From NCBI GenBank assembly GCA_965223705.1, contig OZ245015.1, positions 832,001 to 896,000 of the forward strand: a DNA stretch of 64,000 nt, read 5' to 3'. Below are positions 15,001 to 21,000 of the stretch, one piece after another. The first letter of the stretch is position 1. Each line of letters begins with the position of its first letter. Position numbers: made by a program. The DNA is from Myxococcota bacterium (GTDB taxonomy: Bacteria; Myxococcota_A; UBA9160; UBA6930).

Positions 15001-18000
15001 GTGGCGTTGCTGATTGACTTTGATGGGATACACACCGCGAAACCGGCCCCGGTATTCGTATTCTTCGATCGCTCCCTGGAACGACGCGACCAGGTGTTCC
15101 ATCCGGCGCGCGAGAATCTCCGGGAACCGGAGGAGGAGTGGCGTGCGAAGCCCCCGTCGCTTCAGATCGTCGACGAGCGACAGAAGGTCGACGCGAGCTG
15201 TGCCGTTTCCGTCGGGGCGCACTTCCAAGTGGCCCGTCTCGTTGATCCCGAAGAAACCTTGTCCCCAATTGGGGATGCCGTACAGCTCCGAGTTGTCGCG
15301 GATGATGCGTCGGTTCATCGCAGGTTCTCGTGGCCCGGCAGGGCGACGTCTCGCTCCTCGCGAGACGCGAGATCTCGGGCTCGGGCAACGCCGCGCGCGA
15401 GCTCTTCTTCACCGACGACATAGAGTGTTCGCGCACCGGCGCGGTCCGCTTCCTGGAGGGCTTTCTTCACCCGCATCGGAGCGAGTGCGAGCTCGATCGA
15501 TTGTCCGTCCGCACGGAGCGCTCGCGCCAGCGACGCAGCCGCGCGTTGCTCCGGGGCGCCGAGCGCCAGGACGAATCCGTCGACGTGGTGGCGAAGTTCG
15601 GGCAGCAGATTCCGATCGCGGAGAAGTTCCGTGATCACCGCATCGCCGAAACCAAAACCTGCGGCGGGGAGCGATTTTCCACCGAGTGTTTCCAAGAGGC
15701 GGTCGTAGCGACCGCCTCCCGCAATCGCGCGCAGCGAACCCGTCGAATCGAACGCTTCGAAGACAACGCCCGTGTAGTAAGCCAAACCGCGCACCACGGA
15801 CGCGTCGAACTCGACGCGGTCGACAATCCCGTAGGCATCGAGAAGCTCGAACAATTCGCGGAGCGCCGCGAAACCCGCAGAGTGTTCCGCGACCGCAGCC
15901 GCCGCGTCGTCGAGTGAACGGACCGAAAGCATCGCAACACAATCCTGTGCCGCGGATCGCGAGATCCCGACCGGACCCGCGGAATCGCACAGTTGATCGA
16001 CGACGGCGTCGCTCCCGATTTTGTCGATCTTGTCGATGATGACGCACAGTGGCGCGAACGCTTCGGGCCGCTCCGCCAGAACGCCTCTTCGGAGGGACTC
16101 TTCAAGGACGGCGCGACTGTTCAAGCGCATCCGGACCGCGTCAGCCGGCAGACCCATGGCGTCGAGGGCGCTGAAGAGCGCGGAGATCAGTTCTGCTTCG
16201 GCCGAGGGTCCGGCCTCGCCCCAGATGTCGCAGTTCCACTGGTAGTGTTCTCGCCGTCGGCCGCGGGTCATTCGTTCGTAGCGCCAACACTGTGGGATGC
16301 TGAACCAACGAAGAGGCAGGCGGGCGCTTCCGGCGCGCCGTTGCACCATTCGCGCGAGCGACGGCGTGAACTCCGGGCGCAGGGCGAGGTGTCGATCGTG
16401 CAGCTCGAAGTGGTACAGCTGGTCGACGATCTCTTCGCCGGCCTTGCGGATGAAGAGATCCGCGTGCTCGACCATGGGGGCATCGACTTCTTCGAAGCCG
16501 AACCGGCGCGACACTTCTCGAAAATGGCCGAAGAGCCAGTTGCGTTGCCGCATATCTTCGGGGAAGAAATCGCGCGTGCCTCGAGGCGGATTCGTGTCGG
16601 TCTTCGCCATGACGGTGGCCTAGCCGGACGCGATCGCTAGGAGGGCGCGATTCGCGACCTCGATACAAGCGTCCATATTGCGGTCGAGCTCGATCGCCGA
16701 GGGGCCGGGCCACGGCGTAAGGTCCGACACGACACAGATGCATCCCGCGCGAACGCCGAAGAGGGCGGCCAGCGTGAGCAGGGTGCCCGCCTCCATCTCG
16801 CAATTCGTCACGCGCGCGGCTTGCATCGCTTCGAGCTTCTCCCGATGGGCGGCCGTCCAGTAGCCCCCGACGCTCATCGACGAGAGCTGATCGCCCTCGC
16901 CCTTCACGGCGTTGCGGATGTAGAACGCATCGAGGGACCAGGTGATGCCGGCCCGGCAGGGCACGTCGACGCCCGCACTCGCATCCATCAGAGCGGAGAC
17001 CAAGCGGTAGTCTGCAACGGCGGGGTAGGAGGGGTCGACGTAGCTCTTCGACGTTCCGTCATCCCGTACACAGCCCGTCGTGACGACTAGGTCGCCGATC
17101 GCGACGTCCGCTGCGAGTCCGCCGCTGTTGCCAATACGCAACAAATCGCGGACGCCGAGTTTGACCAACTCTTCTACAAGGATGGCGGTCGAGGGCGCGC
17201 CAATTCCGGTCGAAGCCGCCGCCACCGGCACGCCGTCTCGTTCGCCCCGAATCACGCGGTATTCCCGCACGGAAACGAGCTCCTCGACCCCGCTCCAGCT
17301 CTCGGCGATGCGTGGAACCCGGGCGGGGTCCCCGCACAGGAAAACCCGGGGCGGAACTTGCCCGGGGCGTAGGCCGGTGATGGGTTGGGCGTCGCTCATT
17401 GGGGTGCGCTCATTGGTTGGGAGAAGACAGGAAACGCAGCGTTGCGGACGGGTTGGCGCGATGCAACTCCCCGAGAACGAGTTCTTTTCCCCTGGGGGAG
17501 AAGTCGCCTCGGCTCGTTGGCCGAGGGGCCAAACTTGTCACCGTGGCGAGAGGAGGCTAACCGTGGCCAGCCAGGGGGGCGGTCGACGCCGAGCCGACGA
17601 GAGGTCATTTGTCCAAGGCATTGGTCATCACAGAGAAGCCGAGCGTGGCGCGGGACATCGCGGCTGCGCTCGGGGGCATGCGCGAAGAAGAGGGCTACTT
17701 CGAAGGTGACGACACCGTCGTGACCTTCGCGGTCGGGCACCTCTTCGAGCTTCTCGAGCCCCAGGAAGTCGACGAGCGGTTCAAGGCGTGGACGCTCGAC
17801 GTTCTCCCCATTCTCCCGGAGCGTTTCCAGGTCAAGAAGAAGAAGGGGCAAAGCGAGCGGATTCGCGTCATCAAGAAGCTGCTCGAGCGGGACGACGTCG
17901 ATCGGGTAATCAACGCCTGCGACGCCGGGAGAGAAGGCGAGCTCATCTTCCGCGAGATCGTCGAGTTCCTGGGCAACGAAAAGCCGACCTTCAGGCTCTG

Positions 18001-21000
18001 GCTCCAGTCGATGACGCGGGATTCGATCCGACGAGGCTTTACGGAGCTCCGACCCGGTGAGGAACTCACGGGGTTGGCCGACGCGGCGAAGTGTCGCGCT
18101 CATGCCGACTGGCTCATTGGGATGAATGCGACGAGGGCGCTGACGAAGCGCCTGAAGAGCCGGAAGGAGCGCACGGCCTGGTCGGCCGGGCGCGTTCAGA
18201 CTCCCACGCTCGCGCTCCTCGTCGAGCGAGAGCGCGAAGTGCTGGCTCACGTTCCGGTGCCGTTCCATCGCATCACCGCCGAATTCACCCATGATGACCA
18301 CCCTTACATGGGCACCTACTTCGATCCGGCGTTCAAAGCGAACGACGATGACAGTCGCCGCGACGATCGAATTTTCGACGAGGCGGAAGCACGCGCCATC
18401 GTCGACGCGGTGCGCGGGAGCGACGCCGTCGCCGAGGAAACCCGAAAACCCTCGCGTGAAGCGGCGCCACCTCTGTTCGATCTCACGAGTCTTCAGCGCG
18501 AGGGCAACCGGCGTTTCGGTTGGTCGGCGCGACGCGTTCTCGGCGCGGCCCAACGCTGCTATGAGGCCCACAAGCTGCTGACCTATCCGAGGACGGATTC
18601 CCGCTGTCTGCCGAACGACTACAGACAGACCGTCGACGAGCTTCTGCAAACCTTCGCCGGGTTCGGCGACGAACACGCGGACTATGCGGCCGGGGCGAAG
18701 CGGCTCCTCGAACAAGGGCTCGAGAACGACCAGCGCGTCTTCAACGACGCCGGCGTCTCCGATCACTTCGCCATCATTCCGACCGGAAACCCGCCCCCGG
18801 ATTCGCTTTCGGGCGACGACCGCCGCTTGTTCGACCTCGTAACGAGGCGTTTTCTCGCGACGTTTCACCCGCCGGCGCGCTGGGAACGGGTCGAGCGCGT
18901 GACACGCGCAGCCGGCCACGCGTTCCGGACGCGCGCGCGAGCGTTGAAGGAACCCGGGTGGCGCGCTTGCCTCGCGAAGTCAGAAGAAGACGAAGCGACG
19001 GTGCTCCCGCCGTTGCAGGTCGGTGCGGACAAGGCGGAGGATGTCTCCGTCACAAGTGGAGACGTCGAGCTCCACTCCGAGGAGACGCGACCGCCGGCCA
19101 GGCTTTCCGAAGCCCGCTTGCTCGGATTGATGGAAAACGCCGGTCGCACCGTCGAAGACGAAGAGATCGCCGAGGTAATGAAGAGCACGGGCCTCGGCAC
19201 GCCGGCCACCCGTGCGGAAATCATCGAAAATCTGATCACGAAAGGCTACGCGGTCCGCCAGGGGAAGTCGCTCCGGCCCTCGGTCAAGGGTATCCGGCTG
19301 ATCGACACCCTGGAACGCATTCAAATCGATCGGCTGGCCTCGGCTCGCCTCACGGGCGAGATCGAATCGCATCTTCGCGACGTCGAGAGAGGCGAGCGCG
19401 GGGCGGGCGATTTCATGCAGGAGATGGCCGACTACGCGTGCGCCATCGTCGACCGCGCGAAGACCTTCGAGTACGACGAGCTCTACGGTCACGAAGAGCC
19501 GATCGGTATCTGCCCGCACGGGGGCAAGCCCGTCGTCGAAGGCGCCTGGTTCTACAGCTGCGAGAAAGATCCGTCGCTCGCCCGCGAAGACAAAGCGAAT
19601 CCCGATTGCCCGCTGGATTCGTGCCCGATGCTCCTCTGGAAGGATTCCTTCGGGCGCTACCTCGATCGGGGTTCGGCGGCGGCGATCTTGCGCGACGGCA
19701 AGACCGGAGTGCTCGACGGGTTCACCGCGAGAAACGGTCGCACGTACAAAGGCGTCCTCGAGTTCGATGTCGACGAGGGAAAGCTCACGGTGACTTCCGA
19801 GGGCTGGAACGAGGATTCGGTCAGTGAAGTCGCCGAGTACGAAGTCAATTCCGAGCCGCTCGGCGCGTGTCCCATCGGTAAGGACTGCACGGTCTTCGAG
19901 ACGCCGACGCACTTCGTGTGCACCGAAAAGAAGCGCGAGGAAGACGAAAAAGCGGCCTACAAGGAAGCGCGTAAGCTCGCGAAAGAACGCGGTGAAAAAG
20001 CGCCGCCGAAACCCGAGAAGCCCGACCACGCAGGCTTTATCCTGCCCCGCACGGTGTGCAAGCGCGAGATCACACGAGATGAGGCCACGGTGTATCTCGA
20101 GACGGGTAAGACGGAATTGCTCGAGGACTTCACTTCACGGCTCGGGCGACCGTTCTCCGCGACGCTCTTCCTGAAAGACACGGGCCGACACGGTTTCGAG
20201 TTTCCGCCGCGGAAGGCGCGTGGCGCCACGGCGGACGCAGACCAAGCCGACACCACGAAGGCACGCGGTAAAAAGGCGACCGGAAAGAAAGCGACCGGTA
20301 AGAAGACCACGCGCAAGAAGACGACGCGCAAGAAGACCACACGAAAAAAGGCCGCTGCCAAGACCGCCACGCGCAAGAAGACCACGCGTAAGAAGGCCGC
20401 TGCCAAGAAAACCGCGTCGACCGACGACGACGCCGAATAGTCCACACGTAAAGCAGCAGCACGCCCCGAGCTTCCCTACCCTTGGTCGAGAAGGGAGGCT
20501 ATGAGGCGTCGTTCCATCGGCTACCCGCTCGCGTTGGGCATCACGCTCGCGGTGGTGGCGGGAGCGCTTGCGGTCGGATGGCAACTGCTCGTTGTCGGCG
20601 AGCTCGAACCGGTGACGCGTGGCCTGACGCCACTCCACTGGACCCTGGTCATCCTCGGTTCGGTGTTCTTCGTCTTGCTGATCGTCGGCCTGCTTCTCCT
20701 CTGCGCCTGGCTCGTGCGAGAAATGCGCGTGAATCAGCGCCAAGAAGCGTTTCTCGACGCGGTGACCCACGAGATGAAAACGCCGCTGGCCTCTTTGCGT
20801 CTGTACCTCGACACCTTAGAGCGTCGCGATCCCTCGCCCGAACGCCGTCGCGTTTTCGTCGAGCGAATGGGCCAGGATATCGAGAGGCTCGAACGCACGG
20901 TCCAGCAAGTGCTCGTCGTCGCGCGCGCGGAGGGCGCCCAGAAAGCTCGTTTCGAGTCCGTCGATCTTGCCGCGGTCATTGGGGAGTGCATCGACGAGCT

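What a model noticed while it worked through the whole genome (the two positions that open the first line are those of the whole stretch)
17609..20440. No topoisomerase I and no topoisomerase IV: Topo III plus archaeal-type Topo VI, swapped one-for-one across the class
The only type IA enzyme is a Topo III-clade protein with C-terminal repeats (g00848); there is no TopA and no ParC/ParE, and Topo VI (C1:634890-637812) stands beside gyrase. Across the class TopA and TopB exclude each other, and so, nearly, do Topo VI and Topo IV.
Evidence so far: g00848 scores 525 bits on TIGR01056 (topB, over cut-off) and has no match to TIGR01051 at 1e-60. Of 31 class genomes 6 have TopA, and 5 of these have no TopB; the other 25 all have TopB and no TopA. 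Type II: 15 have Topo VI and one GyrA-family gene, 13 have a second GyrA/ParC-family gene and no Topo VI, 3 have both, 0 neither. A review states Topo I is found in all bacteria (PMC7140829, passages, call 123).
(Added by a program. Inside this text positions count along the whole contig: contig position 832,001 is position 1 of the stretch shown here. "Call 12" and the like, gene names such as g00115 and contig names such as C1 are that model's own, and its searches are not shown. The text may have been shortened before it was handed on; [...] marks where a part breaks off. The agent that wrote the report below was given it as the finding of a first reader that could run no searches.)

Follow-up and report, generated by a model that had tools for sequence, protein, structure and literature searches.

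The report
Topoisomerase III standing in for I
This bacterium lacks topoisomerase I, the DNA-relaxing enzyme that reviews say every bacterium has, and keeps instead a long-tailed relative of topoisomerase III that appears to do the same job here and in many Burkholderia-like bacteria.

Summary
The gene (943 aa) is the genome's only type IA topoisomerase. It is Topo III-type by profile, motifs, tree and fold, with two C-terminal repeats and a lysine tail. Gyrase and Topo VI are present; TopA, ParC/E and Topo IB were not found, and the usual topA slot (dprA-trmFO) is empty. In 151 class genomes, 100 have this enzyme, 44 TopA, none both. That reflects few events: native topA was lost early, and an E. 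coli-like TopA came back in one family plus two genomes. The pattern is not special to the class. Burkholderiales (72 this enzyme, 80 TopA, 1 both, of 151) and Verrucomicrobiota (35 of 101) show it too; in Burkholderiales either gene sits behind dprA-smg. Published Tn-seq tables list the orthologue as essential in Burkholderia and Caballeronia. Best reading: a Topo III clade that has displaced Topo I; its relaxing activity is inferred, not measured. Four reviews say all bacteria have Topo I; ten literature searches found no report of the exception. The Topo VI half is mostly known and looser than claimed (both enzymes in 27 of 151).

The parts
17609..20440 (+). Gene for the sole type IA topoisomerase (Topo III clade, PRK08173-like), 943 aa
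17599..17604 (+). Likely ribosome-binding site GAGAGG, 4 bases before the TTG start
   Evidence: sequence; role inferred
17609..19471 (+). Catalytic core, aa 1-621: Toprim E9-K10, DAGREG acidic motif, domains I-IV
   Evidence: aligns with E. coli Topo III 3-610, E 3e-84; model Z 39.4, rmsd 3.2 over 600 residues to 1i7d
18584..18586 (+). Codon of the catalytic tyrosine Y326 in TYPRTD (Pro after Tyr = Topo III signature)
   Evidence: signature from PMC10969213
19133..19189 (+). Insertion at the place of the E. coli Topo III decatenation loop (aa 509-527); same length, but acidic rather than basic
   Evidence: alignment; absent in TopA rows
19496..19813 (+). C-terminal repeat 1 (aa 630-735): zinc-ribbon-like unit plus Toprim_Crpt unit
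   Evidence: (hhalign to TopA zinc-ribbon units 92%, E 6e-7)
19853..20212 (+). C-terminal repeat 2 (aa 749-868) with a charged helical insertion
   Evidence: first units of repeats 1 and 2 align, 97.7%
20225..20437 (+). Lysine-rich disordered tail (aa 873-943; 26 K+R, 7 D+E)
   Evidence: pLDDT under 50 from 876
16620..17399 (-). Uridine-phosphorylase-like gene, head to head with the topoisomerase; conserved neighbour
   Evidence: TIGR01718, below cut-off; same arrangement in 7 of 8 wide class loci with this enzyme
13417..16610 (-). hisS-like and speA-like housekeeping genes of the conserved neighbourhood (names from recalled motifs, no family scan)

Best explanation
The gene encodes a Topo III-clade enzyme that has taken over the job of Topo I. 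SHOWN: it is the only type IA gene; it has an intact Topo III core, two C-terminal repeats whose first units resemble TopA zinc ribbons, and a lysine tail; native topA is gone from its usual slot; this enzyme and TopA exclude each other in three separate lineages; in Burkholderiales they occupy the same locus; the orthologue is listed as essential in published Tn-seq tables. INFERRED: the core cuts one strand through Y326 and passes the other, the repeats and tail grip single-stranded DNA as TopA's C-terminal domains do, and so the enzyme removes the negative supercoils made by gyrase and transcription and limits R-loops. Topo VI does the decatenation that Topo IV does elsewhere (inferred from PMC11302465). 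INFERRED history: topA lost at or before the base of the class; an E. coli-like topA later imported into most of family f5 and two other genomes, each of which lacks this enzyme.
For: Sole type IA. Class: 100 this enzyme only, 44 TopA only, 0 both, 7 neither, of 151; 67/36/0/1 of 104 good-quality genomes. Burkholderiales: 72 PRK08173 over cut-off, 80 TopA over cut-off, 1 both, 0 neither, of 151. Verrucomicrobiota: the 35 of 101 without TopA are the 35 with a strong PRK08173 match. dprA or smg next to the gene in 65 of 80 TopB loci and 11 of 12 Burkholderiales TopA loci. dprA followed directly by trmFO in 9 of 9 class genomes looked at, three of them TopA carriers; dprA-topA in 6 of 7 TopA genomes of other classes. 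Class TopA 63-67% identical to E. coli TopA against 40-42% for the dprA-linked phylum TopA; groups with E. coli at SH-aLRT 100. Other Topo IIIs never stand alone: all 29 long fusion-type copies occur with TopA (11) or this enzyme (18). Essential lists: B. cenocepacia K56-2, with J2315 and B. thailandensis marked E (PMC5729917 file 2); C. insecticola topB, 881 aa, essential in three media (PMC10809759 file 2); single topB nulls of E. coli are viable (PMC7140829 abstract). Model residues to about 697 superpose on the first C-terminal domain(s) of M. smegmatis, M. tuberculosis and E. coli Topo I. Topo IB in only 1 of 151 class genomes, not this one.
Against: No activity was measured; essentiality does not say which reaction is needed. 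Kin are not independent: each lineage may hold only one or a few events, and no species tree was built. Seven TopA-bearing Verrucomicrobiota carry a more distant TopB (526-613 bits), two of them nearly full model length, so C-terminal repeats alone do not predict replacement. G307 (Burkholderiales), G182 and G208 (family f30) carry this enzyme together with a divergent TopA-like gene. In this class the gene is not in the dprA slot. The B. pseudomallei column of the Tn-seq table is not marked essential. Lysine tails also occur on Topo VI-A and on the imported TopA here, so the tail may be a class habit. The zinc-ribbon match is modest and its template units were picked by a cysteine pattern.
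Confidence: 0.7

Rival explanations
1. The enzyme remains a decatenase and recombination-intermediate resolver like E. coli Topo III; negative supercoils are relaxed by Topo VI (or by Topo IV where present), which made TopA dispensable.
For: Topo VI and Topo IV relax both signs of supercoil in vitro (PMC2647321). Extra Topo IV rescues topA nulls in E. coli and B. subtilis (PMC7140829). The loop insertion is kept and a RecQ-like gene exists in G000. No TopA genome of the class has Topo VI alone (0 of 44).
Against: The enzyme tracks the absence of TopA, not the type II set: of its 100 class genomes 63 have Topo VI only, 22 ParC only, 11 both. It is missing from all 44 genomes that hold TopA, which a separate decatenase role does not predict. 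It sits in TopA's own locus in Burkholderiales.
Confidence: 0.15
2. Any one type IA enzyme is enough; the two are redundant and one is lost at random. This Topo III has no special adaptation.
For: Reviews note that Topo I and III can back each other up (PMC7140829 abstract). Replacement has gone both ways in this class.
Against: Other Topo III types in the same samples are never the only type IA: RecQ fusions 0 of 29 alone; the roughly 680-aa copies in Burkholderiales always come with TopA or the long enzyme. All sole copies placed in the tree fall in one clade (support 95.4).
Confidence: 0.12
3. Artefact: topA is missing from an incomplete assembly, or the protein is a divergent TopA mislabelled by profiles.
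For: The genome is 95% complete and the contig ends show no overlap.
Against: The topA slot is assembled and empty, 35 bases between dprA and trmFO. 100 relatives agree. Genomes titled complete (Bordetella holmesii ATCC 51541, Burkholderiaceae UC74_6) also have only this enzyme. Motifs, tree and fold all give Topo III.
Confidence: 0.02

Closest known systems
NCBIfam PRK08173 / NF006032 'DNA topoisomerase III' (the Burkholderiales long form)
   Same: Best family match, 822 bits over aa 1-914; same core, repeats and basic tail; sister clade in the tree; also the sole type IA in its hosts.
   Different: Score is under the family cut-off (1058); about 42% identity to a clade member; not in the dprA-smg slot in this class.
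E. coli topoisomerase III (TopB)
   Same: Core fold (Z 39.4), EK and YP signatures, loop insertion of equal length.
   Different: E. coli TopB has a short basic C-terminus without repeats (PMC9369019), a basic loop, coexists with TopA and is dispensable; this protein has about 320 extra residues, an acidic loop and no TopA beside it.
Bacterial topoisomerase I (TopA), including the Streptomyces/Mycobacterium forms with C-terminal repeats and lysine repeats
   Same: Architecture: core, tandem small beta domains, lysine-rich tail; sole type IA status; locus in Burkholderiales.
   Different: Different clade: 200 bits on TIGR01051 against a cut-off of 456; ESP.K and YMRTD motifs replaced by EKPS and YPRTD.
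Bacterial Topo VI with gyrase and without Topo IV (Allen and Maxwell 2024, PMC11302465)
   Same: Same type II set as reported for 10 of 17 families, whose list includes Polyangiaceae, Anaeromyxobacteraceae and Vulgatibacteraceae.
   Different: That paper finds all three type II enzymes only in Pseudomonadota and Terrabacteria; here 27 of 151 class genomes have Topo VI-B and a ParC as well.
Gyrase-bearing archaea (Topo III + Topo VI + gyrase; PMC2647321)
   Same: The same overall kit: Topo III as type IA, Topo VI, gyrase.
   Different: This Topo III is of bacterial type: topB 530 bits against topA_arch 288. The likeness is convergent (inference).

Membership tests
Bacterial Topo III (TopB) | Score over the TIGR01056 / PRK07726 cut-offs | tested here: met
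   529.6 > 515.75 and 599.7 > 597
Bacterial Topo III (TopB) | Lys after the first Toprim Glu; Pro after the catalytic Tyr (PMC10969213) | tested here: met
   ITEKPS and TYPRTD
Bacterial Topo III (TopB) | Groups with E. coli TopB, apart from TopA, in a tree | tested here: met
   IQ-TREE LG+G4 fast search, 52 sequences, 577 columns; the branch between the two sides has SH-aLRT 100; no archaeal or eukaryotic outgroup
Bacterial Topo III (TopB) | Positively charged decatenation loop (PMC8191776) | tested here: inconclusive
   Insertion present at equal length but acidic, as in all other family rows shown, RecQ fusion included
Bacterial Topo III (TopB) | Strong decatenation, weak relaxation | not testable with these tools
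   needs an assay
PRK08173 equivalog | Score over 1058 bits | tested here: not met
   822 bits, full length; filed as a sister clade, not a member
Bacterial Topo I (TopA) | Score over the TIGR01051 cut-off; ESP.K and YMRTD motifs | tested here: not met
   200.3 < 456.4; motifs absent
Bacterial Topo I (TopA) | C-terminal ssDNA-binding repeats (zinc ribbon or Topo_C_Rpt) | tested here: inconclusive
   No Pfam zf-C4_Topoisom or Toprim_C_rpt hit; hhalign 92% for unit 1, 9% for unit 2; structural overlap to residue 697 with Topo I chains
Bacterial Topo I (TopA) | Efficient relaxation of negative supercoils; binding to RNA polymerase | not testable with these tools
   needs an assay; no complex prediction was run
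Reverse gyrase | N-terminal helicase domain; TIGR01054 cut-off | tested here: not met
   95.8 < 471.7 bits; no helicase domain
Topo VI (C1:634890-637812) | B subunit over TIGR01052 cut-off, adjacent A subunit | tested here: met
   B 562.2 > 380.7; A best match PRK04342 models, 461 bits, under their cut-offs; genes adjacent
Topo VI (C1:634890-637812) | Placement within the archaeal-derived bacterial clusters | not tested
   no Topo VI tree was built

The most novel reading that the evidence does not exclude
A single clade of long Topo III enzymes has repeatedly displaced Topo I as the supercoil-relaxing partner of gyrase, across three phyla and in about half of Burkholderiales species, Burkholderia and Bordetella included, in places by taking over the topA locus itself; the swap is reversible; so 'every bacterium has Topo I' is false for a large, culturable group and the Topo I/Topo III division of labour is set by the C-terminal domain, not the core. 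This has not been put in print.
Probability: 0.55. Interest if true: 0.85.

Novelty: new variant of a known kind. Interest (0 to 1): 0.72.

Why it matters
Four reviews read here state that all bacteria have Topo I and treat Topo III as an optional second enzyme. A widespread Topo III-only state overturns that and makes an old question testable in easy laboratory species: what makes a type IA enzyme a relaxase rather than a decatenase. It also bears on antibiotic work aimed at Topo I, since the corresponding essential enzyme in Burkholderia-like bacteria is a Topo III. The class itself offers a natural experiment: loss, replacement and re-import of TopA beside three type II combinations.

Tried and rejected
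The search for related loci with the single protein found nothing; an alignment worked. Earlier scan findings were not available, and the 50%-cluster representatives could not be named, so their taxa stay unknown. A first tree run gave no answer and was redone with FastTree and IQ-TREE; no formal clade test and no species tree were run. The first structure job folded representative P0136, first row of A2, not the window protein; the second folded the window protein. Repeat 2 and the Toprim_Crpt units were not folded alone, so their fold is untested; HMMs of the Toprim_Crpt units gave no clear hit on 25 TopA C-termini. In-place replacement within this class was looked for and not found: TopA loci share no neighbours with TopB loci, and the udp gene of three TopA genomes has no topoisomerase within 1.5 kb (not found in the other two queried). 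Topo IB as substitute: rejected (1 of 151). A plasmid search showed related full-length TopBs at 32-39% identity on plasmids but no closer source. Literature: ten searches gave no paper that states the Topo III-only condition; most subscription papers are outside the library. Forterre et al. 2007 (Biochimie) and Garnier et al. 2018 are recalled as possible prior mentions and were not seen.
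Full report
1. The gene. Window 17609-20440 (+) encodes 943 aa. It scores 529.6 bits on TIGR01056 topB (cut-off 515.75), 599.7 on PRK07726 (597), 822 on PRK08173 (1058) and 200.3 on TIGR01051 topA (456.4). Pfam finds Toprim, Topoisom_bac and two Toprim_Crpt stretches. It has the two Topo III signatures named in PMC10969213 (passages): Lys after the first Toprim Glu (ITEKPS) and Pro after the catalytic Tyr (TYPRTD); the class TopA rows read VESPAK and YMRTD. An AlphaFold2 model (pLDDT 88.7, 72 sequences) matches E. coli Topo III best (Z 39.4, rmsd 3.2, 600 residues); residues to about 697 also overlay the first C-terminal domain(s) of mycobacterial and E. coli Topo I. The C-terminus holds two repeats and a lysine tail. 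The first unit of repeat 1 aligns with TopA zinc-ribbon units (hhalign 92%, E 6e-7; 16 of 25 TopA C-termini hit against 1 of 25 reversed); repeat 2 gives only 9%. The insertion at the E. coli decatenation loop is there but acidic; PMC8191776 describes that loop as positively charged (passages).

2. The genome's kit. G000 is 4.56 Mb in 2 contigs, 95% complete; GC skew shows two arms of similar length. No second type IA gene was found by tblastn, phmmer or an unfiltered HMM search, so no TopA and no reverse gyrase. One GyrA-family and one GyrB-family gene, the first a true GyrA. Topo VI-B and an adjacent A gene at C1:634890-637812. No Topo IB. A 64%-identical homologue is labelled Myxococcota; I take the phylum to be that, and recall the class as UBA9160 without a test.

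3. The empty slot. In G000 dprA (C1:1074293-1075342) is followed after 35 bases by trmFO, then xerC, hslV, hslU (the last three named from recalled motifs). In TopA genomes of other classes of the phylum, topA lies right behind dprA in 6 of 7 examined (five with trmFO next; the six were chosen for their short TopA; G161 is unlinked). All 9 class genomes examined have dprA-trmFO with no topA between, including G128, G001 and G124, which do hold a TopA elsewhere. The Topo III gene itself sits beside a conserved udp-hisS-speA block, not in a mobile element.

4. The class, 151 genomes including G000. TopA over cut-off 43, plus G023 split on two contigs: 44. Orthologue of the window protein (57-73% in the best segment, some in pieces): 100 (which ran with a stricter first look, so its tally is a floor). 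Both 0; neither 7, all 76-91% complete. Among 104 genomes at least 90% complete and at most 5% contaminated: 36, 67, 0, 1. The orthologue is in all 11 families; TopA is in 42 of 48 genomes of f5, in G001 and in G124. These TopAs are 63-67% identical to E. coli TopA over about 860 aa against 40-42% for the dprA-linked phylum TopA, and group with E. coli TopA at SH-aLRT 100. So the exclusion is strict but rests on few events: one loss, one import, perhaps two onward transfers (inference; no species tree). A third type, 38-49% identical and mostly 1320-1560 aa, is in 29 genomes, 11 with TopA and 18 with the orthologue. Nine were fetched: eight are Topo III fused to a RecQ helicase, one is frameshifted in the assembly; the other 20 were classed by identity and frame length only.

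5. Type II. Topo VI-B in 95 of 151; a short ParC of family NF007209, with parE next to it in the two loci read, in 77. Topo VI only 68, ParC only 50, both 27, neither 6; in the 104 good genomes 46, 36, 20, 2. G114, G130, G134 and G141 have two PF00521 matches without an NF007209 match and were not inspected. The rule is 'at least one of the two', not a swap. PMC11302465 (passages) already reports Topo VI in 17 bacterial families, ten without Topo IV, and argues that it stands in for Topo IV; it finds all three enzymes only in Pseudomonadota and Terrabacteria, so the 27 cases extend it. The exact kit of G000 (this Topo III, Topo VI, no ParC) is in 63 of 151.

6. Outside the class. In the phylum, 86 of 98 genomes of other classes have TopA over cut-off; families f18 (3 of 3) and f30 (7 of 7) do not. 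The eight of their genomes fetched hold the same Topo III clade (support 100 with the class); G182 and G208 also hold a divergent TopA-like gene. Ten of ten betaproteobacterial-type genomes tested from them, chosen because they hold the gene, have no TopA over cut-off; they include Bordetella holmesii ATCC 51541, Burkholderia dolosa, Cupriavidus campinensis, Massilia haematophila and Nitrosomonas halophila; so do five of five Verrucomicrobiota. In an even draw of 151 Burkholderiales (asked at 97% completeness; centre genome included) 80 have TopA, 72 PRK08173, one both (G307, a divergent 488-bit TopA on a 105-kb contig), none neither. In 101 Verrucomicrobiota 65 have TopA plus one split; the other 35 are those with a PRK08173 match of 960 bits or more or in pieces (only 8 pass the curated cut-off); seven TopA genomes hold a weaker TopB. 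dprA or smg neighbours the gene in 65 of 80 TopB loci (2.5-kb flanks, some cut short), in 4 of 7 further TopB loci, and in 11 of 12 Burkholderiales TopA loci: either enzyme fills the same place. Kinship within these two samples is not told, so the number of independent events is unknown.

7. Published genetics. Supplement file 2 of PMC5729917 lists 'DNA topoisomerase III' (WQ49_RS23460) among essential genes of B. cenocepacia K56-2, with BCAL0462 and BTH_I0125 marked E and BPSL0118 unmarked; its five 'topoisomerase' rows include no Topo I. Supplement file 2 of PMC10809759 lists topB (881 aa) as essential in C. insecticola in three media, Topo IB as non-essential, and no Topo I. Neither main text contains the word topoisomerase. 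PMC4993015's supplement was searched, but only its first hit (gyrB) was seen. That these genes are orthologues of the PRK08173 type is inferred from name, length and host. I saw table rows only. bioRxiv supplements were closed.

8. What is known. All bacteria have Topo I, and Topo III is optional: PMC2647321 (passages), PMC7140829 (abstract and passages), PMC8191776, PMC10969213. PMC9369019 and PMC7823277 (passages) discuss Topo I as the only type IA in some species, not Topo III. Ten searches found no statement of the exception. The enzyme family itself is long catalogued (PRK08173), so a prior remark in a paper outside the library is quite possible.

9. Verdict. Real, and larger than the window: a Topo III clade that is the sole type IA enzyme in three phyla and behaves genomically as a TopA replacement (0.7). 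Rivals: type II enzymes relax and this one decatenates (0.15); any type IA suffices (0.12); artefact (0.02). The Topo VI part adds little. New variant of a known kind; interest 0.72.

Noticed in passing
L074:1523-5542, L075-L078, L080-L082 (G004, G014, G035, G045, G075, G013, G124, G036): Topo III fused in one ORF to a RecQ helicase with an HRDC-like end (TIGR01056 558.7 and recQ_fam 378.3 bits); about 29 of 151 class genomes; not in G000. One literature search found nothing.
   Followed up: partly
L004-L033, L083, L087, L093 (family f5, G001, G124): TopA 63-67% identical to E. coli TopA but with an added lysine-rich tail, at a locus away from dprA: an imported gene.
   Followed up: yes
L182, L183 (G182, G208); similar scores in G162, G167: A divergent TopA-like type scoring 330-402 bits on TIGR01051, on a long branch at the base of the TopA side; occurs beside either main enzyme.
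   Followed up: partly
L243:2166-6171 (G115): The class's second type IIA enzyme is the short ParC/ParE of family NF007209, which among 14 control genomes rings only in Bacteroides.
   Followed up: partly
G000 C1:634890-637812, C1:515056-515439, C1:1537241-1537801: Lysine/alanine-rich low-complexity stretches at the N-termini of both Topo VI subunits and in two small histone-like ORFs.
   Followed up: no
G000 C1:2396433-2397401: A stand-alone RecQ-like helicase, 46% identical to the fused RecQ part.
   Followed up: no
L126, L140: Two records titled Bifidobacteriaceae/Bifidobacterium hold this Topo III; L140 has betaproteobacterial-type dprA, smg neighbours, so the labels may be wrong.
   Followed up: no
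window 20501-22161: Sensor kinase and response regulator directly downstream on the same strand; kinase kept next to the gene in five other class loci.
   Followed up: no
plasmid records H1-H19: Full-length relatives at 34-39% identity on plasmids of Xanthomonas, Pseudomonas, Burkholderia and Xylella: a possible vehicle for the family's spread.
   Followed up: no
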